Shown piece after piece: positions 3,617 to 33,407 of a stretch of DNA of 64,000 nucleotides. Position 1 is the stretch's first letter. The number at the start of each line of letters is the position of its first letter. Source of the stretch: an uncultured Candidatus Saccharibacteria bacterium (GTDB lineage: Bacteria; Patescibacteriota; Minisyncoccia; Phycocordibacterales; JACNGX01); assembly GCA_964621395.1 (NCBI GenBank), contig CAZULS010000002.1, positions 87,306 to 151,305 on the forward strand. The letters run 5' to 3'. The notes below the pieces were generated by a model. It had not been told where the DNA came from. It did not search any database and saw only the letters and a program-made list of their open reading frames with translations. The position numbers and the translations under genes were made by a program.

Positions 3617-4924
3617 ATGCAGAAAGGCCTCACAAAACGTCTTGTGCGTGATATATCAAAGGGGAAAGGGGAGCCGGCGTGGATGCGGGAGTGCCGCTTC
3701 GCCGGTTTTTCCGCGTATCAGAAGATGGATATGCCGAAGTGGGGTCCGGATCTCTCAAAGCTCAATCTGAAAGACATTTCTTTCTATACGCCGGCGCCTG
3801 TTGGTGAAGCAGACACATGGGAGGGTGTGCCCGAGGATGTGCGTAAGCCGTTTGAGAAAGCGGGTGTGGCGAAAGAAAAAGACATGGGCGGAAGCGGTGC
3901 GCAATTTGATTCGGGTGTGGTGTATCATCACATTAAAGAAACGCTCACTCGCCAAGGGGTGATATTTATGAATATGGACAGTGCGCTTCGTGAGCATGAG
4001 ACACTGGTGCGGGAATATTTTGGCTCGGTGGTGCGTCCCGATGAGCATATCTTCACCGCCGCACACTATGCGGCAACGAGCGGCGGGACCTTTGTGTATG
4101 TGCCCAAGGGTGTGCGCGTGTCACTTCCTCTTCAGGCGTTTTTCTGGATGAATAGTGACGGGGGTGGACAATTTGAACACACGCTGATCGTTGCCGATGA
4201 GGGCTCGTCGGTCACCTATATCGAAGGATGCGGATCGCCGGCATATCGCAATGCCGCACTTCACGCAGGTGTGGTGGAAGTGATTGTGAAGAAGAATGCA
4301 TCGGTGGAATATATTAGCATTGAGAACTGGGCGAAAAATACCTACAATCTCAACACCAAACGTGCGCATGTGGAAGAAGGAGGATCGATAAAGTGGCTCG
4401 GAGGAAATATGGGCGCCGGTGTGACCATGCTGTATCCGACATCTGTTCTGAAAGGGAAAGGGGCACGGGCTCATCACGAGTCTGTGGCTGTGGCAGGGAG
4501 TGGCCAGGTGCAGGATACCGGTGGACGAGTGATTCATGCTGCGGCTGAGACATCCTCGACTTTGCATTCGCGAAGCGTGGTGCGCGAAGGGGGAGTATCG
4601 AATTTTCGCGGACATGTGGAAGTGAAAGAAGAGGCCTCAGGTGCACTTTCCTCTATGGTATGTGATTCGCTCATGCTCGATAATGATTCATCTTCGGCGT
4701 CGTATCCGGTCGTTGCTTCAAAGCGGAGTGATGTGGAGCTTTCGCATGAGGCACGGATTGGCTCGGTGGGGGAAGAAGAACTTTTCTACGCAGCAACGCG
4801 CGGTCTTTCAGAGAAGGAGGCCGTCCGGCTTATCGTGGGCGGATTTGTGCAGCCCGTCATCCGTGCCATTCCGATGGAATATGCACTTGAGTTTAATCGT
4901 CTGTTGGATGAGGAATTTAAGTGA
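3617..4924 (+). CDS. sufB: Fe-S cluster assembly protein SufB (SufB/SufD family)
   Basis: Motifs VTYIEGCGSPAY...NTKRAHVEEGGSIKWLGGNMG are typical of SufB/SufD beta-helix proteins. It is the first gene of a suf cluster. Confidence 0.8.
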   Translation: MQKGLTKRLVRDISKGKGEPAWMRECRFAGFSAYQKMDMPKWGPDLSKLNLKDISFYTPAPVGEADTWEGVPEDVRKPFEKAGVAKEKDMGGSGAQFDSGVVYHHIKETLTRQGVIFMNMDSALREHETLVREYFGSVVRPDEHIFTAAHYAATSGGTFVYVPKGVRVSLPLQAFFWMNSDGGGQFEHTLIVADEGSSVTYIEGCGSPAYRNAALHAGVVEVIVKKNASVEYISIENWAKNTYNLNTKRAHVEEGGSIKWLGGNMGAGVTMLYPTSVLKGKGARAHHESVAVAGSGQVQDTGGRVIHAAAETSSTLHSRSVVREGGVSNFRGHVEVKEEASGALSSMVCDSLMLDNDSSSASYPVVASKRSDVELSHEARIGSVGEEELFYAATRGLSEKEAVRLIVGGFVQPVIRAIPMEYALEFNRLLDEEFK

Positions 4925-5051: not shown

Positions 5052-6272
5052 ATGACACATATTGACACTAAAAAAATTAAATCCGATTTCCCTATCTTCG
5101 GAAACATGCCGGAAGGTTTTGCGTATCTCGACAATGCGGCAACAAGCCAAACCCCGCAGTGCGTGATTGATGCGCTTACGAAATACTACACTCATGAACG
5201 CGCCAATATTCATCGTGGCTCATACGCGCTTGCTGAAAAGGCGACGGCTCGATATGAAGAAGCACGTGAACGCATTGCTGATTTTATCGGTGCAGAGAAA
5301 GAGGAGATTGTGATAAGCGGCGGGGCAACACTTGCCTCTAATATGCTCATACTCATGCTTGAGGCCGCCCACACCTATCGCGCGGGAGAGGAGATTGTAA
5401 CGACTGTCTCCGAGCATCATTCATTGCTTGTGCCTCTCCAGGAGCTTGCTGAGCGCAAAGGCATGAACCTACGCTTCGCGCCTCTTTGTGAGGGTGGTAT
5501 GGTTGATGAAAAGGAAATGAAAAAGCTCATCACGCGGAAGACGCGCATCGTGGCTATGAGCATGGCAAGTAATGTGACAGGCGCGGTGATGCCATATGAG
5601 AGAGTGATGCATGCGGCAAAGGAGGCGGGTGCTATCGGTATCTTGGATGGCACGGCATATGTTGGTCATGCGCCGCTGTCTGTGGGTGAGATGTCGGCGG
5701 ATGCAATGTTTTTCTCAGGGCATAAGATGTGCGGGCCGATAGGTGTAGGGATTTTGTATATGAAAGATTCGCTGATGAGGAGATTGCGCCCGGTCTTTTT
5801 TGGCGGCGGTATCGTGGAAGAGGTTACAAAGAGTGGTGCACGATGCACTGATGCGCCGTATAAATTTGAAGCGGGAACTCAGCCGATTGCGGAAGTGATT
5901 GGATTGGGGGAAGCAGCTACGTATCTTTCCGGTATCGGGCTTGAATCTATTTCCGCGCATGTCCGTGAGCTTGTGGATTATGCACGTGCCGAGATTGGGA
6001 ATATTCAAGGCGTGAAGATCTACGCTGCACCGGCGGAAAAGAACATTGGTATTGTGTCGTTTACGGTTTCAAATATTCATCCGCATGACATTGCGCATAT
6101 TGCAGGAGAGGAGGGAGTGGCACTTCGTGCCGGGCATCACTGCGCGGAGCCATTGGTGCGAGAGCTTGGAGAGGTGGCGACTGCCCGCGCGAGTTTTTAT
6201 CTGTATAATACAAAGGAGGATGTCGATGCACTCGTGCGTGCAATTAAAAAAGCCCAGCACATATTCACATGA
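5052..6272 (+). CDS. sufS: cysteine desulfurase SufS (class V aminotransferase)
   Basis: PLP-lysine region SGHKMCGPIGVGILY and a C-terminal RAGHHCA motif. 406 aa. Confidence 0.85.
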   Translation: MTHIDTKKIKSDFPIFGNMPEGFAYLDNAATSQTPQCVIDALTKYYTHERANIHRGSYALAEKATARYEEARERIADFIGAEKEEIVISGGATLASNMLILMLEAAHTYRAGEEIVTTVSEHHSLLVPLQELAERKGMNLRFAPLCEGGMVDEKEMKKLITRKTRIVAMSMASNVTGAVMPYERVMHAAKEAGAIGILDGTAYVGHAPLSVGEMSADAMFFSGHKMCGPIGVGILYMKDSLMRRLRPVFFGGGIVEEVTKSGARCTDAPYKFEAGTQPIAEVIGLGEAATYLSGIGLESISAHVRELVDYARAEIGNIQGVKIYAAPAEKNIGIVSFTVSNIHPHDIAHIAGEEGVALRAGHHCAEPLVRELGEVATARASFYLYNTKEDVDALVRAIKKAQHIFT

Positions 6273-21680: not shown

Positions 21681-22343
21681 TCAGGGGAAAAAATGGAAAC
21701 GGACTTTATGCATCTTCTCCAATGCATCAGCAAGAATAAGACTTTCCTCGGCATTGATGAGAATTTTCTGAATGAACTCACCTTCTCCTAATCTCATTCT
21801 CATGTCGAGGTGAAAGTAGCTATCATCCTCGAGTGTAGCACTTAGACAAGAAAGATCTTTATCCCAAGCTGGAATACGTTTCGATCCTGAGTCTCCGTTG
21901 AAGAGATAGAATTTTATTTTGGTGTTAACTCGCCCCTCTTCTAGTTTTAAATATAACTCAAAACCGGTGATGTATACCTGCGAAGAGGGTGGTGTGAGTT
22001 TACCGTGTATCCTCAACTCTTTTCCTTCACGAATGAATTTTTTCCGATAGAGAACGACTGTCCGGTCTTCTTCGTCTCTGAGTATCTTGGATTGTTCGCT
22101 CTCCGGGAGAGCAAGGAACTTTTTTGCGTCTTCAATAACGGGTTTCTCCTCGAGCCCCTGATTTCTTCCTGGGAGGATATCCATAGGATTAGTTTTTGGC
22201 ATGACTTTTTTCTGTTTAAAGGGTTGGGATAAAGTGCAACTGCATGTAGGGTAATGCATATATGAGATAAGGTCAAGTTTGGCTATTGCCATTTTTTGCT
22301 CTTTTGGTATGATAATGAGCGCCCCTGACAGGACAAAGCACAA
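21681..22343 (-). CDS. hypothetical protein
   Basis: 220 aa ORF with no recognisable family. The true start may be the internal MPKTNP at 22253. Confidence 0.45.
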   Translation of the reverse strand: MCFVLSGALIIIPKEQKMAIAKLDLISYMHYPTCSCTLSQPFKQKKVMPKTNPMDILPGRNQGLEEKPVIEDAKKFLALPESEQSKILRDEEDRTVVLYRKKFIREGKELRIHGKLTPPSSQVYITGFELYLKLEEGRVNTKIKFYLFNGDSGSKRIPAWDKDLSCLSATLEDDSYFHLDMRMRLGEGEFIQKILINAEESLILADALEKMHKVRFHFFP

Positions 22344-22358
22344 AACGACAAAAGAATA

Positions 22359-22431
22359 TTCCGCGGTAGCTCAGTTGGTAGAGCGGTCGGCTGTTAACCG
22401 ATTGGTCGCAGGTTCGAGCCCTGCCCGCGGA
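22359..22431 (+). tRNA. tRNA-Asn (anticodon GTT)
   Basis: Cloverleaf: acceptor TCCGCGG/CCGCGGA, D-arm TAGCTCAGTTGGTAGAGC, anticodon loop CTGTTAA, T-arm GCAGGTTCGAGCCCTGC, discriminator G. CCA is not encoded. Confidence 0.85.
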
Positions 22432-22445
22432 GCATAATATAGTTT

Positions 22446-22475
22446 GACCCCGAGGCATGTCCTCGGGGTCTTACT
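22446..22475 (+). terminator. Hairpin GACCCCGAGG-CATGTC-CCTCGGGGTC after tRNA-Asn; it is also the centre of a ~95 nt palindrome
   Basis: Perfect 10 bp stem. The flanks TAATATAGT / ACTATATTA and the tRNA 3' end / inverted copy extend the palindrome. Confidence 0.55.
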
Positions 22476-22632
22476 ATATTACTCCGCGGCAGGGCTCGAA
22501 CGGCGGAGCAGCGGGTCCCCGCTTGCGGGGCTGCGAGCCGCGTCCAGGAGTACTTTGCGGATTGCGAATATCTGGAGCAATACGCTTAGTAACTCCGGGA
22601 CAGTCCTGCCCGCCCTTTGGGGCGTTTTTCAT
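22476..22632 (+). other. tRNA-associated conserved GC-rich element, copy 1
   Basis: Inverted copy of the tRNA-Asn T-loop-to-acceptor region (CTCCGCGGCAGGGCTCGAAC) fused to the core GGCGGAGCAGCGGGTCCCCGCTTGCGGGGCTGCGAGCCGCGTCCAGG. It ends at the terminator CGCCC-TTTG-GGGCG-TTTTT. About 60 nt are shared with 33040..33104 (minus strand). Confidence 0.4.
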
Positions 22633-22840
22633 ATGCTCCGCGGGAGCAAGCCAACTGCTTAGCTTGCGTCAGGGCTCGAAAGCCGCAGCCATGTTGGAGC
22701 GCTTGCGCGACGACGGCGAGGCCGGGTCGGAAGCACTTAGCAGAATACGAGCTTTAGCGAAGTGTTATGCTTAGTGACTTGTGACCGAGCACTTAGTATG
22801 GTCCCGGGTGAGGCATGTCCTCGGGGTTTTACAGATCGTA

Positions 22841-22869
22841 TTGACAAACAGCAAGCTGTCGATTAGAAT
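22841..22869 (+). promoter_or_regulatory. Candidate sigma-70 promoter TTGACA-N17-TAGAAT
   Basis: Consensus -35 and near-consensus -10. A ~170 nt transcript would end at the terminator CCGCC-TCAC-GGCGG-T7 near 23020..23048, and contains no ORF. Confidence 0.4.
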
Positions 22870-23104
22870 AGACACAGACATAAGGACCTTGTCTCATCAG
22901 CATCAAGTCCGAGCCTCTTGGCTCATTACCAAGCGGCTGAGAGGCCTAAAAAAATACGATGCCGTTGGCAGGGCCCTGCCGATGTTGATGGACTTGGTCC
23001 TTTTTTGTATAAAGCAAAACCGCCTCACGGCGGTCTTTTTTTGTGCCAGCCACTCACTTTTCACTGCTTAATACCTCAATAGGCTTATACAAAATGATAG
23101 GAAG

Positions 23105-23293
23105 TCAGATTAAGAAACTTGCCAGACCAATGGTGAAGAGGGAAGGAATAATGGGAAAAGGAAATATGTCTCCATAGAAACCAAACCACTCAAGCCAAAC
23201 CATAATAATAACCGACAGCGCACAAAGAAGCATGCACACGAAGAATGTTTTTAGAGAGGCATGTTCAATGGTGTGAATTGTTTGCTTGTTCAT
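23105..23293 (-). CDS. hypothetical small membrane protein (62 aa)
   Basis: Two hydrophobic helices. Weak call. Confidence 0.3.
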   Translation of the reverse strand: MNKQTIHTIEHASLKTFFVCMLLCALSVIIMVWLEWFGFYGDIFPFPIIPSLFTIGLASFLI

Positions 23294-23369
23294 GCGCGTA
23301 TAGTGTAGCGCAATCTACTTTTAAAGATTAATAACAGACAAGATAATTAAAATCAGGTATAGTTTCTGT

Positions 23370-27106: not shown

Positions 27107-27122
27107 CTCCCCATTCTCTTTA

Positions 27123-27304
27123 CTGTCATCCCGCACTTGATGCGGGATCCAAGCAGACATAATTATGTAGGTAAAACTCTGGATTCCAGGGTCTTGTCAG
27201 GAATGACACATCCTAGGGTTATTCGAAAACCAAGATTGAGTTTTGGTATGAATACCAAAGCTCAACCTTGGTTTTAAGATCCCGCATCAAGTGCGGGATG
27301 ACAG
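27123..27304. repeat. Large B-family element with terminal inverted repeats CTGTCATCCCGCACTTGATGCGGGATC ... GATCCCGCATCAAGTGCGGGATGACAG and internal AAAACCAAG...CCTTGGTTTT palindrome
   Basis: 27 bp TIRs flank ~130 bp. A MITE-like organisation. Confidence 0.65.
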
Positions 27305-29070: not shown

Positions 29071-29257
29071 AGAGCCTGTTCGTAATCTCATGTCGTGCGT
29101 AATGCATCATATACCGAGCGAAAATCGTGAAAAGTGTTGATGGAGTACTGTCGTACTTCGAGACACTTTAAGCGATTTACAGCCGGTATATGGCGCATTA
29201 AGCCGACAAGGACATGTTCTTCTTCGTTCAATTCCGTTGAGATTATGAACAGGCTCT
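29071..29257. mobile_element. MITE family D copy 1 (~187 bp, 20 bp perfect TIRs AGAGCCTGTTCGTAATCTCA / TGAGATTATGAACAGGCTCT)
   Basis: The internal sequence carries a second inverted repeat TATACCGAGCGAAAATCG / CGATTTACAGCCGGTATA. Tandem copy at 29325..29512, third copy at 58698..58884, degenerate inverted copy at ~49497..49725. Confidence 0.7.
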
Positions 29258-29324
29258 TAGATGACACACTCAGTATATATGAGAATACCGATTGACTGAA
29301 AGTTTTTTTTGTTCTCTGACTTTA

Positions 29325-29512
29325 AGAGCCTGTTCACAATCTCATGTCGTGCGTGACACACTCATATACCGAGCGAAAATCGTGAAAAGTGTCGAAGGAG
29401 TACTGTCGTACTTCGAGACGCTTTGAGCGATTTGCAGCCGGTATATGAGTGTGTCAGCCGGCAAGGATATATCTTTCTTTCTCCTATTCCGTTGAGATTG
29501 TGAACAGGCTCT
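29325..29512. mobile_element. MITE family D copy 2
   Basis: ~85-90% identical to copy 1, with the same TIRs AGAGCCTGTTCACAATCTCA / TGAGATTGTGAACAGGCTCT. Confidence 0.7.
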
Positions 29513-29570
29513 AAGAGGAGAAAAAAGTGAGCGCGGCGGGGCAAAGCCCCGCCGCGCTAAGTGGTAAAAT

Positions 29571-31057: not shown

Positions 31058-31163
31058 TGTCATCCCGCACTTGATCCTACATTGCAAGCAATCGGATACA
31101 ATGCGGGATCTCGAGAGAGTTGTTTCATAACGTTTAGATCCCGCATCAAGTGCGGGATGACAG
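31058..31163. repeat. B-family MITE-like element (TIRs TTGTCATCCCGCACTTGAT ... GATCCCGCATCAAGTGCGGGATGACAG)
   Basis: Immediately upstream of the PBP2 start. The GTG that begins the predicted ORF at 31150 lies inside the right TIR. Confidence 0.65.
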
Positions 31164-31173
31164 AAAACACACC

Positions 31174-32923: not shown

Positions 32924-32976
32924 AAAAGGAAACAACAAGCGGCGCTCCTTTCAGGAGCGCCGCTTGTTGTTTTGTG
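32924..32976. terminator. Bidirectional intrinsic terminator (18 bp perfect stem AACAACAAGCGGCGCTCC-TTTC-GGAGCGCCGCTTGTTGTT)
   Basis: A-run upstream and T-run downstream. Shared by PBP2 (+) and the minus-strand tRNA-Glu-associated element. Confidence 0.7.
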
Positions 32977-32991
32977 ACGGGAATCGTCCCG

Positions 32992-33110
32992 CAGTCACTA
33001 AGTAAAATGCTCCGGGCACTCGCATTTTACAAAGTGCTGCTGGACGCGGCTCGCAGCCCCGCAAGAGCGGGGACCCGCTGCTCCGCCGTTCGACTCCCCG
33101 TAGGGCCTAC
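32992..33110 (-). other. tRNA-associated conserved GC-rich element, copy 2 (minus strand, downstream of tRNA-Glu)
   Basis: The minus strand reads GTAGGCCCTACGGGGAGTCGAACGGCGGAGCAGCGGGTCCCCGCTCTTGCGGGGCTGCGAGCCGCGTCCAG. This is an inverted copy of the tRNA-Glu 3' end plus the same core as 22501..22550. Confidence 0.4.
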
Positions 33111-33155
33111 AAAACGCAACGACACCGAAGGCATGCTTCGGTGTCGGCGTTATTG

Positions 33156-33227
33156 TGACCCTACGGGGAATCGAACCCCGGTTTTATCCGTGAGAGGGAT
33201 ACGTCCTAGCCGCTAGACGATAGGGCC
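33156..33227 (-). tRNA. tRNA-Glu (anticodon CTC)
   Basis: Minus strand GGCCCTATCGTCTAGCGGCTAGGACGTATCCCTCTCACGGATAAAACCGGGGTTCGATTCCCCGTAGGGTCA. 3-bp D stem typical of tRNA-Glu, anticodon loop CTCTCAC, T-loop TTCGATT. Confidence 0.8.
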
Positions 33228-33407
33228 ATATTACATTGTTGTTACAGAGCCGCTAGCCCCGATATTGCCCAAATCTTTGATTTGGCTGCAATATCGTGGG
33301 TCCTCGGTGGTGCGACCAAGCTATGCTTGGGCACCACCGGGAACGATAGGGACATATTGCAACGTGTGGATTATTGTAATACAAAAAAAGAAAAAGGGCA
33401 ATAGAAG

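What the first reader, a model, noticed from the sequence alone, without database searches (positions are those of the whole stretch)
22446..22835. Conserved GC-rich element fused to an inverted copy of the neighbouring tRNA's own 3' end, downstream of tRNA-Asn
tRNA-Asn is followed on the same strand by three things: (1) a perfect 10 bp hairpin (GACCCCGAGG/CCTCGGGGTC); (2) an inverted copy of the tRNA's T-loop-to-acceptor segment (CTCCGCGGCAGGGCTCGAAC) with flanks ACTATATTA / TAATATAGT, making a ~95 nt palindrome centred on the hairpin; (3) a GC-rich core GGCGGAGCAGCGGGTCCCCGCTTGCGGGGCTGCGAGCCGCGTCCAGG that ends at an intrinsic terminator near 22605..22632. The same core is found downstream of tRNA-Glu at 32992..33110, where the inverted copy matches tRNA-Glu (GTTCGACTCCCCGTAGGGCC) rather than tRNA-Asn. 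So the antisense-to-tRNA segment is locus-specific while the core is shared. A second, more degenerate unit follows at 22633..22835: it has CTCCGCGGG, CAGGGCTCGAA and a CTTAGTGACT-like tail, and ends at a second copy of the CATGTCCTCGGGG hairpin. The whole region is much more GC-rich than its surroundings, and the 105 aa ORF drawn across it is almost certainly not coding. Possible explanations are an unannotated small RNA family that pairs with the 3' half of its neighbouring tRNA, a scar left by integrative elements that target tRNA genes (though the duplication is inverted, not direct as in att sites), or a snap-back / hairpin-primed duplication.
Basis: seen in the sequence. Interest (0 to 1): 0.78.

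Follow-up and report, generated by a model that had tools for sequence, protein, structure and literature searches.

The report
tRNA-linked antisense-plus-scaffold RNA module
Most tRNA genes in this group of ultra-small (Parcubacteria) bacteria are followed by an undescribed structured element: a conserved RNA scaffold joined to a backwards copy of that tRNA's own 3' end, so each tRNA appears to have its own matching partner RNA.

Summary
Both tRNA genes here (Asn, Glu) are followed on their own strand by the same composite unit. It consists of a ~20-bp trailer hairpin, an inverted copy (S') of the tRNA from T54 to the discriminator plus trailer, and a ~100-nt GC-rich three-way-junction core. 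A short sense copy (D) of the T-loop/T-stem closes the core, and a terminator follows. A second, diverged unit follows tRNA-Asn.

The core matches no Rfam family, phage or plasmid. It recurs in Parcubacteria/Paceibacterota genomes and metagenomes, always joined to the antisense T-loop (..TCGAA|core) of a different tRNA. Of 22 tRNA genes in the fetched loci, 17 carry such a unit.

Covariation is strong (26 of 35 pairs). Folding and G·U wobbles favour the tRNA strand. The tRNA-Glu unit persists at the orthologous locus in relatives whose neighbouring protein is only ~60% identical.

Best reading: a new tRNA-trailer RNA module, made by read-through, whose antisense arm can clamp the tRNA's 3' half. 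It probably arose by fold-back copying at the universal TCGA of the T-loop. Its function is not shown. A selfish palindromic repeat remains a serious rival.

The parts
22360..22432 (+). tRNA-Asn (GTT). Positions 54-73 (22413-22432) are the segment 'T' that is copied in the unit.
   Evidence: ARAGORN and Rfam tRNA at 70.6 bits.
22433..22481 (+). Trailer hairpin: trailer, hairpin H (stem 22446-22455 / 22461-22470, loop CATGT) and inverted trailer. 19 predicted pairs, starting right after the discriminator.
   Evidence: Sequence, inverted repeat I16, fold. H is homologous to the Glu hairpin with compensatory changes.
22482..22501 (+). S' (Asn): inverted copy of tRNA-Asn positions 73 to 53/54, ending ..TCGAAC.
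   Evidence: 38 matches, 2 mismatches and 3 gaps over the whole arm.
22502..22601 (+). Core 1 (type A): three-way-junction scaffold. It has P1 GGC/GCC, hairpin 1 (GGAGCAGCGGGUCCCCGC..GCGGGGCUGCGA) and hairpin 2 (..CACUUUG..CUUAGUAAC..GGGAC).
   Evidence: Covariance-model hit 22485-22613, E=1.7e-26 (this copy was in the training alignment).
22602..22613 (+). D1: sense copy of T-loop end, T-stem 3' strand and start of acceptor (AGTCCTGCCCGC). It pairs with 22488-22496 as the closing stem P0.
   Evidence: Folds; three-way alignment.
22607..22629 (+). Intrinsic-terminator-like hairpin plus TTTTT at the end of unit 1; it works only on the + strand.
22636..22681 (+). S' of unit 2: CTCCGCGGG (22636-22644), an inserted hairpin (22645-22669, loop region ..CTGC..) at the acceptor/T-stem junction, then CAGGGCTCGAAA (22670-22681).
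   Evidence: The same insert with a 9-bp stem and CUGC loop occurs in L092, L095, L098 and L114.
22682..22786 (+). Core 2 (type B), a diverged homologue of core 1. It shares P1, the GCAG../..CGAG loop and CACUUAG..CUUAGUGAC.
   Evidence: Covariance-model hit 22665-22799, E=4e-24 (in the training alignment). Homologous to unit 2 of L098.
22787..22830 (+). Remnant D2 (GAGCAC), a copy of the trailer (TTAGTATGGT) and a second copy of hairpin H followed by TTTT.
   Evidence: Direct repeat D6, 96% identity; pattern hit at 22808-22824.
33157..33227 (-). tRNA-Glu (CTC).
33110..33156 (-). Trailer hairpin of the Glu unit (H stem-loop 33120-33146, loop CATGC); 20 predicted pairs.
33088..33109 (-). S' (Glu): inverted copy of tRNA-Glu positions 73 to 53. 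It contains an extra A (33108) between anti-73 and anti-72, and two changes that give G·U pairs with the tRNA.
   Evidence: (I6).
32986..33087 (-). Core (type A) of the Glu unit. The first ~46 nt are near-identical to core 1; hairpin 2 differs by compensatory changes.
   Evidence: (I1, I4). Covariance-model hit 32973-33104, E=1.8e-27 (in the training alignment).
32974..32985 (-). D (Glu): CGATTCCC-GT-CAC, a sense copy of T-loop/T-stem with most of the acceptor deleted. It forms P0 with S'.
32930..32972 (-). 20-bp terminator closing the Glu unit, shared with the convergent penicillin-binding-protein gene.

Best explanation
This is a lineage-specific (Parcubacteria/Paceibacterota) family of composite modules built into the 3' trailer of most tRNA genes.

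Each unit has five parts:
1. A ~20-bp hairpin that starts right after the discriminator base.
2. S', an antisense copy of the tRNA gene from T54 to the discriminator plus trailer.
3. A conserved ~100-nt three-way-junction scaffold (the core).
4. D, a sense copy of the T-loop/T-stem 3' strand, which closes the scaffold by pairing 8-9 bp with S' (stem P0).
5. A terminator.

Most likely it is made as RNA on the tRNA strand, when RNA polymerase reads through the trailer hairpin. S' then has two mutually exclusive partners. One is the tRNA's own 3' half, giving a 40-45-bp duplex that abolishes the cloverleaf and would be an RNase III-type substrate. The other is D, which sequesters part of S' and completes the core. 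The module therefore works as a cis-acting clamp or switch on the fate of read-through pre-tRNA. The conserved core probably serves as a platform for a protein or a tertiary fold that sets the balance.

The boundaries lie at the palindromic TCGA of the universal T-loop: S' always ends ..TCGA|A and D always begins (C)GA... Together with the T/D direct repeat, this indicates that units arise at the DNA level. The likely route is fold-back copying at the trailer hairpin plus template switching or recombination through T-loop microhomology.

Shown: the anatomy, its recurrence, covariation, strand bias, orthologous conservation and the alternative pairings. Inferred: transcription by read-through, the clamp/switch function, RNase III involvement and the copy mechanism.
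For: Recurrence and specificity
- All 16 metagenome loci and the 2 real genome hits (a Candidatus Paceibacterota MAG and a Parcubacteria-group MAG) show the same order wherever upstream sequence is present: tRNA, hairpin, antisense 3' end, core. The pattern-found loci in the window and fetched contigs follow seven different tRNAs: Arg, Met, Ser, Gly, His, Asn, Glu.
- 17 of 22 tRNA genes in the window and fetched Parcubacteria loci carry a unit. Among the 14 found without using the core pattern, 9 do.
- The covariance model finds units only on the tRNA strand at these sites, including copies not used to build it: L114 at E=2.5e-17 and L098 3402 at E=7e-17.

Structure
- 26 of 35 pairs show double changes and 92.3% of cells are paired, against 72.8% in shuffles (0/500) and 32-41% in slid controls.
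- P1 (GNC/GN'C) shows all four Watson-Crick combinations.

Strand
- The tRNA strand folds better in 18 of 20 units, by a mean of 7 kcal/mol.
- Mismatches between the tRNA and S' are G·U-compatible on the tRNA strand 11 times and on the other strand 2 times (p=0.011).
- The terminators after unit 1 and unit 2 work only on the + strand.
- There is no room for a separate promoter.

Conservation
- The tRNA-Glu unit is present at the syntenic PK-HisRS-SPase-Pth-PBP locus in relatives with 59-60% PBP identity. The trailer and hairpin are homologous and show compensatory changes, and S' tracks a change at tRNA position 59.

Clamp
- The minimum-free-energy fold of full read-through transcripts pairs S' with the tRNA 3' half. 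The core and P0 form in the isolated unit.
- The trailer hairpin has 18-22 bp in 14 of 16 loci.

Origin
- The ..TCGA|A..core..|CGA.. junctions hold in every unit.
- D matches the tRNA rather than S', and usually has its own trailer.
- The hairpin is duplicated at the far end of the Asn array.
Against: - There is no expression data, so read-through of a hairpin followed by a U-tract is assumed. In several loci that hairpin looks like an efficient bidirectional terminator (for example L096, L095).
- P0 (8-9 bp) cannot compete thermodynamically with the 40-45-bp tRNA:S' duplex. A switch would therefore have to be kinetic or protein-dependent.
- Core types A, B and C differ considerably, which argues against a single small-molecule aptamer.
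- Several palindromes are perfect over 37-38 nt. Nearly identical cores sit at different loci (L091 versus L095). Units form arrays, contain nested insertions and decay (L011 3970-4091; L110 second unit). All of this is as expected for a repeat maintained or spread at the DNA level.
- G·U counts are small. Helix P0 'covaries' by construction, because it is an inverted repeat of locus-specific sequence.
- No partner protein was identified.
Confidence: 0.5

Rival explanations
1. A selfish, non-autonomous palindromic repeat (MITE/REPIN-like) with no host function. It colonises tRNA genes through the universal T-loop sequence. Its hairpins are conserved because they promote its own copying as single-stranded DNA (fold-back and template switching, or an unidentified HUH or other enzyme acting in trans).
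For: - Multi-copy, with assembly breaks exactly at the core (L087, L091, L094-L096, L099, L001).
- About 99% identical cores at two different loci (L091 versus L095).
- Tandem arrays (window Asn, L098 His, L097, L095 Gly).
- Perfect 37-38-nt palindromes.
- Decaying copies, and D copies with deletions.
- Other MITE-like inserts nested inside units.
- Fixed junction at TCGA.
- The same core subtype sits next to unrelated tRNA ends in different genomes (window Asn versus L016).
Against: - The Glu unit, including the trailer and hairpin that the tRNA does not constrain, is conserved at the orthologous locus across ~60% protein identity.
- Strand-specific folding advantage and G·U bias.
- Conserved unpaired motifs and modular peripheral domains, as in functional RNAs.
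- No transposase, reverse transcriptase or integrase in 64 kb of housekeeping genes.
- The inverted arms are locus-specific, unlike MITE terminal repeats.
Confidence: 0.27
2. A trans-acting guide RNA. The hairpin and core are constant handles around a 31-37-nt programmable segment (S' plus trailer'). A dedicated, unidentified protein uses this segment to recognise the cognate pre-tRNA or the tRNA gene, for modification, processing, repair or transcription control.
For: - Scaffold-plus-variable-segment layout.
- The variable segment measures 31-37 nt in the ten units I measured from the sequences.
- The hairpin and the core are both conserved between the Asn and Glu loci while the segment between them differs.
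- In the window units and L016, the anti-acceptor 7-8 nt of S' has no partner in D and would be single-stranded.
- A recurrent extra A lies between anti-73 and anti-72 in independent loci.
Against: - No effector gene is nearby.
- No match to HEARO/omega-RNA, tracrRNA or any other Rfam family.
- The segment matches only the immediately adjacent gene, and extends into its trailer rather than the mature CCA end.
- Much of it is sequestered in P0 or, in read-through RNA, by the tRNA itself.
Confidence: 0.1
3. A tRNA-like decoy. S' and D form an acceptor/T-stem minihelix identical to that of the neighbouring tRNA, with the T-loop replaced by the core and, in many units, a 9-bp CUGC hairpin where the D and anticodon arms would emerge. 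RNase P, RNase Z or the CCA enzyme could process this mimic, or it could be used as a punctuation signal or a decoy.
For: - Read on the tRNA strand, S' equals acceptor-5' plus T-stem-5'.
- The CUGC hairpin sits at or within one nucleotide of the acceptor/T-stem junction in L092, L095, L098 and L114 (and a GUAU-loop hairpin at the same place in L088), and its stems covary.
- D is a perfect 3' end, including CCA, in L098 His, and is perfect in L011 Tyr, L095 Gly and L114 Glu.
- The extra unpaired A would sit at position -1.
Against: - D lacks the acceptor strand in the window's Asn and Glu units and in L016, and has 3-6-nt insertions in L089, L090 and L094, so no acceptor stem can form there.
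- There is no T-loop.
- ARAGORN and the Rfam tRNA/tmRNA models do not recognise the units.
Confidence: 0.08
4. Scars of integrative elements (att sites) that targeted the tRNA 3' end, or a protein-coding ORF.
For: T and D form a direct repeat of tRNA positions ~54-76, the classic identity block of tRNA-targeting integrases. An ORF of 105 aa spans the region.
Against: - The insert is only ~200 nt, with no integrase.
- It contains an inverted att copy and a conserved structured core shared between different tRNAs.
- It is conserved at orthologous loci.
- The ORF has no Pfam hit, is not on record as a gene, and the conservation pattern is that of base pairs.
Confidence: 0.03

Closest known systems
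Palindromic repeats co-transcribed with neighbouring genes (Neisseria Correia elements, REP/BIME/REPIN, ERIC; named from my own knowledge, except the REP review PMC3733652 and the small-repeats review PMC3184786 seen as titles and abstracts)
   Same: Small, multi-copy, intergenic and hairpin-forming. They occur in alternating orientations or arrays, can act as terminators or RNase III sites, and cause assembly breaks.
   Different: Their inverted repeats have the same sequence in every copy. Here the arms are copied from the adjacent tRNA and differ at every locus, while only the centre (the core) is shared. The units are tied to tRNA 3' ends, always on the tRNA strand, and are conserved at orthologous loci.
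tRNA 3' external transcribed spacer (3'ETS) small RNAs such as 3'ETS-leuZ of E. coli (from my own knowledge)
   Same: A functional RNA derived from the trailer of a tRNA transcript.
   Different: 3'ETS RNAs are short, unstructured sponges for other small RNAs at single loci. They are neither antisense to their own tRNA nor a repeated family with a conserved scaffold.
Retroviral / LTR-retrotransposon primer-binding site (from my own knowledge)
   Same: A stretch complementary to the 3' end of a specific tRNA, reaching back to the T-loop.
   Different: A primer-binding site pairs with the mature CCA end over 18 nt and sits in an element that encodes a reverse transcriptase. Here the complementarity follows the gene's trailer, including CCA only where it is encoded. 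It reaches T54, lies next to the tRNA gene itself, and no reverse transcriptase is present.
tRNA-targeting integrative elements (attL/attR direct repeats of the tRNA 3' end) (from my own knowledge; compare PMC8138268, seen as title and abstract)
   Same: A direct repeat of the tRNA segment from T-loop to 3' end flanks the inserted DNA, and the tRNA gene stays intact.
   Different: The insert is ~200 nt with no recombinase, carries a third copy in inverted orientation, and has a conserved structured core.
Guide RNAs with constant scaffold and variable guide (CRISPR crRNA, omega RNA of IscB/TnpB, homing guides of CRISPR-associated transposons that match tRNA genes) (from my own knowledge)
   Same: A constant structured scaffold joined to a ~20-35-nt segment complementary to a tRNA gene.
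   Different: No effector or transposon genes are nearby and no Rfam family matches. There is one unit per tRNA, placed beside its own target, and the 'guide' is largely base-paired within the unit.
Inverted triplications made by template switching at short inverted repeats (ODIRA; PMC11790251, seen as title and abstract)
   Same: The direct-inverted-direct arrangement of a segment, with junctions at hairpin-forming or palindromic sites.
   Different: ODIRA amplifies large chromosomal segments in yeast and carries no shared foreign core at the junction. It offers only an analogy for the origin of these units.

Membership tests
Any Rfam 15 RNA family (tmRNA, RNase P, 6S, SRP, Y RNA, HEARO, ribozymes, riboswitches) | Covariance-model score at or near the family's gathering threshold | tested here: not met
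   Only the two tRNAs pass in the whole window. With E<=10 on 22300-23100, only sub-threshold noise appears, with the best at 25.8 bits against a gathering score of 100.
MITE | Terminal inverted repeats with the same sequence in all copies | tested here: not met
   The inverted arms (S'/D) are copies of the local tRNA and differ between loci. Only TCGA../..CGA is common.
MITE | Short target-site duplication and a cognate transposase in the genome | tested here: inconclusive
   CGA is present on both sides, but it is part of a palindromic context. No transposase is found in the 64-kb window. The rest of the genome was not available.
IS200/IS605-derived PATE / omega-RNA element | Insertion 3' of a fixed short motif without duplicating the target, subterminal hairpins, and TnpA/TnpB | tested here: not met
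   A fixed 5' motif (TCGAA) is present in all copies. However, the target (tRNA positions 54-76) is duplicated both directly and in inverted orientation. No Y1 transposase or TnpB is present in the window, and the Rfam IS605-related motifs do not match.
REP/REPIN | 20-40-nt palindromic units of constant sequence, in doublets | tested here: not met
   The unit is ~250 nt with a 100-nt asymmetric three-way-junction centre.
Integrative-element att scar at a tRNA gene | Direct repeat of the tRNA 3' segment flanking the element | tested here: met
   T and D are direct copies of positions ~56-73/76. D is perfect in L011, L095, L098 and L114.
Integrative-element att scar at a tRNA gene | Tyrosine or serine recombinase, or its remnants, between the repeats | tested here: not met
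   Only ~200 nt of non-coding sequence lies between the repeats, and the window encodes no recombinase.
Retroelement primer-binding site | Complementarity to the mature tRNA 3' end including the added CCA | tested here: not met
   In CCA-less genes (Asn, Glu, Met, Gly) S' continues into the genomic trailer and not into TGG. Anti-CCA appears only where CCA is encoded (L087, L098).
Intrinsic terminator (for hairpin H) | GC-rich stem followed by a U-run | tested here: inconclusive
   The scan detects the Glu hairpin on both strands. The first Asn hairpin is not called because its tail is UCUUACUAUAUUA. Many other loci have A-tract, hairpin, U-tract. The stems of 18-22 bp are unusually long.
Structured non-coding RNA (generic) | Compensatory base changes that support a common fold beyond controls | tested here: met
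   26 of 35 pairs have double changes, 0 of 500 shuffles reach this, and slid controls give 32-41% paired against 92%. The caveat is that helix P0 is an inverted repeat by construction.
Structured non-coding RNA (generic) | A discrete transcript | not testable with these tools
   No transcriptome data were available. The strand was inferred from folding asymmetry, G·U bias and terminator orientation.
Riboswitch-type switch | A closing stem that shares a strand with an alternative structure | tested here: met
   S' pairs with D in the isolated unit and with the tRNA 3' half in the full transcript.
Riboswitch-type switch | An invariant ligand-binding core shared by all members | tested here: inconclusive
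   Types A and B share the motifs GGAG/CGA and CACUUAG/CUUAGUGAC. Type C cores differ.

The most novel reading that the evidence does not exclude
In these reduced bacteria, most tRNA genes encode their own sequence-matched RNA partner. This partner is a conserved scaffold carrying a 31-37-nt segment complementary to that tRNA's 3' half and trailer. An RNA-programmed mechanism uses it to control or process that specific tRNA. The mechanism could be a cis clamp or riboswitch-like decision between maturation and RNase III destruction. Alternatively it could be a dedicated ribonucleoprotein that recognises the pre-tRNA or the tRNA gene through this guide. Either would be a previously unknown layer of tRNA-specific, RNA-guided control in Bacteria.
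Probability: 0.25. Interest if true: 0.9.

Novelty: categorically new. Interest (0 to 1): 0.8.

Why it matters
Candidate-phyla-radiation bacteria have very small genomes, yet they spend 200-450 nt after most tRNA genes on this module. They keep it in place across deep divergence.

If it is an RNA device, it shows a new way of coupling a structured scaffold to a locus-specific antisense arm in order to act on individual tRNAs. It would also add a new large RNA class to a poorly understood part of the tree of life.

If it is selfish DNA, it is a new kind of repeat. It uses the one sequence shared by all tRNA genes, the T-loop, as its handle, and builds its arms from the target itself. That bears on how palindromes form and persist in bacteria.

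In practical terms, these units break metagenome assemblies at tRNA genes. They also create spurious ORFs, such as the 105-aa one here.

Tried and rejected
Known RNA families
- Rfam at gathering threshold over the whole window, and at E<=10 over 22300-23100, returned only the tRNAs and noise.

Wider sequence searches
- The exact 20-mer against species-representative genomes gave 18 hits. 16 were chance matches in GC-rich genomes, mostly Actinobacteria, and only two Parcubacteria MAGs were real.
- A looser pattern against viral contigs gave 65 hits, all chance matches, mostly in GC-rich contigs. A strict 18-mer gave none.
- blastn of the whole region against the phage and plasmid collections gave no match.

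Coding and mobile-element tests
- The 105-aa ORF has no Pfam hit and no record as a gene.
- A search for an element-encoded enzyme found none. 40 ORFs across the window were scanned; those with Pfam hits are housekeeping or ordinary cellular genes (DnaG, RpoD, Suf, HisRS, AlaRS, PBP, RpoA, DnaK and others), 8 had no hit, and none is a transposase, reverse transcriptase or integrase.

Synteny
- Synteny through the YgjV gene failed. Only three homologues exist, and the closest (87% identity) has a different gene in place of the tRNA-Asn region. The upstream 220-aa protein has no homologues.

Ideas rejected after reading the sequences
- A tRNA on the opposite strand interrupted by an intron: there is no 5' half.
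- Group II intron domain V, hammerhead, K-turn / box C/D: the motifs do not fit.
- Integron attC: the AAC/GTT boxes are in the wrong topology.
- IS91 (GTTC target) and IS605: the target is duplicated.
- A CRISPR-associated transposon homing guide: there are no transposon genes.

Literature
- Six full-text searches, including sequence strings, and one paper check found no description of this element.
Full report
**1. What is in the window**

ARAGORN and Rfam find two tRNA genes: tRNA-Asn(GTT) at 22360-22433(+) and tRNA-Glu(CTC) at 33155-33227(-).

Reading downstream of tRNA-Asn on its own strand, the parts are:
- An 11-13-nt trailer.
- A perfect 10-bp hairpin H (22446-22470, loop CATGT).
- The trailer again, in inverted orientation.
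- CTCCGCGGCAGGGCTCGAAC (22482-22501), the reverse complement of tRNA positions 73 to 53 with one base missing. I call this S'.
- From 22502, a GC-rich stretch I call the core.
- AGTCCTGCCCGC (22602-22613), a sense copy of the end of the T-loop, the T-stem 3' strand and the start of the acceptor strand. I call this D.
- A terminator-like hairpin with TTTTT (22607-22629).

The same order follows tRNA-Glu on the minus strand. There, S' (33088-33109) is the inverse of tRNA-Glu rather than tRNA-Asn.

The 21-mer that starts the core occurs exactly at these two places, with none expected by chance. GC is 0.57-0.61 here against roughly 0.36-0.45 in the flanking 200-nt windows.

**2. The fold of the unit**

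On its own, S'-core-D folds into a three-way junction:
- The closing stem P0 (8-9 bp) forms between the T-loop/T-stem part of S' and D.
- Hairpin 1 consists of P1 (GNC/GN'C), an internal loop GGAG/CGA, and P2.
- Hairpin 2 carries the conserved CACUUAG/CUUAGUGAC segment and a variable tip.

Between the Asn and Glu copies the first ~46 nt are almost identical. Hairpin 2 differs by paired changes.

The stretch 22633-22835 is a second unit of a diverged type (B). Its S' is interrupted by a 25-nt hairpin, and it ends in a 96%-identical second copy of H followed by TTTT.

**3. It is a family, and it belongs to Parcubacteria**

The exact 20-mer search of one genome per species returned 16 chance hits in GC-rich genomes and two real ones. 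The real ones are a Candidatus Paceibacterota MAG (L011) and a Parcubacteria-group MAG (L016). A two-part pattern that imposed no flank on the core returned 16 metagenome loci with GC of 0.39-0.51, and all of them are true members.

Wherever the upstream sequence is present, the order is the same: tRNA 3' end, trailer, hairpin, inverted trailer, inverted tRNA 3' end ending in ..TCGAA, then the core. The pattern-found units in the window and these loci follow Arg, Met, Ser, Gly, His, Asn and Glu.

When I examined every tRNA in the fetched loci, further units appeared after Tyr, Asp (twice), Val, Pro, Gly and Leu. These have other core types (A', B, C) but the same architecture. Adding the two orthologous Glu loci found by synteny, 17 of 22 tRNA genes carry a unit. 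Among the 14 that were not found through the core pattern, 9 do.

A covariance model built from 12 units finds three copies in the window and none elsewhere in it. It recovers copies that were not used to build it, such as L114 at E=2.5e-17. It finds nothing in the three non-Parcubacteria control loci included in the search, nor in several other fetched loci that lack units.

There is no match in Rfam, viral contigs, phage or plasmid records, or the literature I could search.

The window's genes are core housekeeping genes of a bacterial chromosome. No transposase, reverse transcriptase or integrase is present. Homologues of the penicillin-binding protein (PBP) are named Candidatus Yonathbacteria, Kaiserbacteria, Paceibacterota and Patescibacteria.

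**4. Evidence that the structure is selected, and on which strand**

On a 12-sequence alignment, 26 of 35 predicted pairs show changes on both sides. 92.3% of cells are paired, against 72.8% in shuffles (0 of 500 reach the observed value) and 32-41% when partners are slid. P1 shows GGC/GCC, GCC/GGC, GUC/GAC and GAC/GUC. Helix P0 should be discounted here, because it is an inverted repeat of locus-specific sequence.

The tRNA strand folds more stably than its complement in 18 of 20 units, by a mean of 7 kcal/mol. Where the tRNA and S' are not perfectly complementary, the mismatch is a G·U on the tRNA strand 11 times and on the other strand twice (p=0.011). The terminators after unit 1 and unit 2 of the Asn array function only on the + strand.

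There is no space for a promoter between the hairpin and S', or between D and the next terminator. The most economical reading is that the unit is transcribed with the tRNA by read-through of the hairpin. This is an inference, because no transcript data exist.

**5. Conservation at an orthologous locus**

The gene order PK, HisRS, signal peptidase, Pth, PBP is kept in relatives. The evidence from three sets of relatives is as follows:
- L114/L115 (PBP 60% identical): tRNA-Glu lies downstream of PBP with a unit whose core is clearly homologous (GGCGGAGC..GCGAGCCGCGCCCAGCGGUACUU..UUAGUAACCGCGGGG). P2 is rebuilt by compensatory changes, and D is perfect.
- L112 (Candidatus Yonathbacteria, 59%): the trailer and hairpin are homologous to the window's. 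These parts are not constrained by tRNA function. They show three compensatory changes in the stem and the same extra A, and S' follows the tRNA's change at position 59.
- L107, L108 and L110 (75-89%): all end inside units. L111 ends 49 nt after the PBP stop, before any unit sequence.

Sequence with no function should be randomised at this distance, so the unit has been maintained.

**6. Regularities that constrain the mechanism**

(a) Junctions. S' always ends ..TCGA|A(N) and D always begins (C)GA... The core therefore sits at the palindromic TCGA of the T-loop, the only sequence shared by all tRNAs.

(b) T and D are direct repeats. D resembles the tRNA rather than S', and usually has its own trailer. 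In the window's Asn array and in L016, the trailer and hairpin are duplicated after the last D.

(c) Trailer hairpin length. From the discriminator to the anti-discriminator it has 18-22 bp in 14 of 16 loci.

(d) Two forms of S'.
- Units without an inserted hairpin carry an extra A between anti-73 and anti-72, and an extra TT next to the hairpin, in independent loci.
- Units with a 9-bp CUGC hairpin have it at or within one nucleotide of the acceptor/T-stem junction, with covarying stems. Their palindromes are perfect or nearly so (three of five are perfect) over 35-38 nt.

(e) State of D. In the window's two type A units and in L016, D lacks the acceptor strand. The 7-8-nt anti-acceptor part of S' therefore has no partner inside the unit, yet it remains complementary to the tRNA.

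(f) Read-through fold. The minimum-free-energy fold of the whole read-through transcript pairs S' and the inverted trailer with the tRNA's 3' half over 40-45 bp. This destroys the cloverleaf, while hairpins 1 and 2 still form.

**7. Most likely explanation**

I read the unit as an RNA module in the tRNA's 3' trailer. Its antisense arm S' has two competing partners: the tRNA 3' half, which is long and thermodynamically dominant, and D, which is short and closes the conserved core. That is the logic of a switch or clamp. It could decide whether a read-through precursor matures or becomes a long duplex of the kind RNase III cuts. The uniform ~20-bp trailer hairpin is also of RNase III substrate size.

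The steps from 'two alternative pairings exist' to 'they are used as a switch' and 'RNase III acts' are inferred.

The origin is best explained at the DNA level, in three steps:
1. Fold-back of a nascent strand at the trailer hairpin copies the trailer and the tRNA 3' end backwards as far as the T-loop.
2. The universal TCGAA allows a switch into an existing unit, which copies the core.
3. The CGA on the other side allows the return, which gives D.

This accounts for the boundaries, the direct-inverted-direct arrangement, the duplicated hairpin in the Asn array, and the fact that S' is always local while the core is shared. It does not by itself explain why the hairpins of the Asn and Glu units in this genome are homologous.

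**8. Rivals**

A purely selfish palindromic repeat is the main alternative. It is supported by near-identical cores at different loci, arrays, decaying copies, perfect palindromes and assembly breaks. Against it stand the orthologous conservation, the strand bias, the conserved unpaired motifs and the absence of any enzyme nearby.

A trans-acting guide RNA for an unknown protein, and a tRNA-minihelix mimic processed by RNase P or RNase Z, each explain some details: the constant handles around a 31-37-nt variable segment, the extra A, and the CUGC hairpin at the position where the tRNA body would emerge. Each also fails on others: no effector gene is found, D is often incomplete, and there is no T-loop.

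Integrative-element scars and a protein-coding ORF can be set aside.

**9. Novelty and verdict**

Nothing I could test or find describes a conserved scaffold fused to an inverted copy of the adjacent tRNA's 3' end, repeated at most tRNA genes of a lineage. The nearest analogues share single features only: co-transcribed palindromic repeats, 3'ETS small RNAs, retroviral primer-binding sites, att repeats, guide RNAs and inverted triplications.

I rate it categorically new in architecture. The feature itself is well established, while its function remains open.

Noticed in passing
window 22841-23046 (+): A near-consensus sigma-70 promoter (TTGACA-17-TAGAAT, 11 of 12) lies directly after the Asn array. 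It is followed by a 175-nt strongly structured stretch (z=-6.3) that ends in a U-run and a second terminator (23019-23044). It has no Rfam match and is absent from the closest relative (L106). It looks like an independent small RNA or leader.
   Followed up: partly
window 33228-33375 (-); L114 6333-6500: The 5' leader of tRNA-Glu contains partial direct copies of the tRNA's first ~20 nt. They are split by two hairpins, one of which is an inverted duplication (z=-6.0). In L114 the upstream region plus the first ~24 nt of tRNA-Glu is tandemly repeated three times. Local duplication and inversion therefore also affect the 5' side of tRNA genes in these genomes.
   Followed up: partly
window 22645-22669; L092 ~1890-1915; L095 ~1050-1075 and ~4245-4270; L098 ~1345-1370; L114 ~6170-6195: A 24-25-nt hairpin module (A, 9-bp stem, CUGC loop, 9-bp stem, GU) with covarying stems is inserted at or within one nucleotide of the acceptor/T-stem junction of S' in many units. 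It is present in the L114 Glu unit but absent from the orthologous window and L112 units.
   Followed up: partly
window 27119-27152, 27278-27304, 31058-31075, 31133-31167: Another small palindromic repeat family (GATCCCGCATCAAGTGCGGGATGACAG) occurs in intergenic regions flanking the pyruvate kinase/HisRS and Pth/PBP genes.
   Followed up: no
window 29107-29264 and 29362-29519: A 158-nt direct repeat (85% identity) with internal inverted repeats, upstream of the signal-peptidase gene.
   Followed up: no
L114 ~5815-6050; L110 ~4390-4480; L107 ~3980-4100: A separate MITE-like element with terminal inverted repeats (CCCAGCTCCACTTTCATG / CATGAAAGTGGAGCTGGG, or CCCAGCTCCAAGCTT) is inserted inside or next to degenerate second units downstream of tRNA-Glu.
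   Followed up: no
L109 4317-5093: One contig encoding the same PBP protein as L110 and L111 has an rve-family integrase (an insertion sequence) directly downstream of PBP, where L110 has the tRNA-Glu units. This is a strain-level rearrangement at the locus.
   Followed up: no
L092 ~940-1005 and ~1060-1160, compared with L089: Two extra inserts of 65 nt and ~95 nt lie in an otherwise ~95% identical tRNA-Met unit. One sits exactly at the S'/core junction (..TCG^AA..). The other sits between P1 and hairpin 2 and carries a GCAAGAC...GGACAG domain that is also present in the L091 and L095 units. This is an optional extra domain of the core.
   Followed up: partly
window 23050-23330 (-): This stretch is nearly identical between the window and the 87%-related L106. 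It probably encodes a small membrane protein on the minus strand, upstream of the YgjV gene.
   Followed up: no
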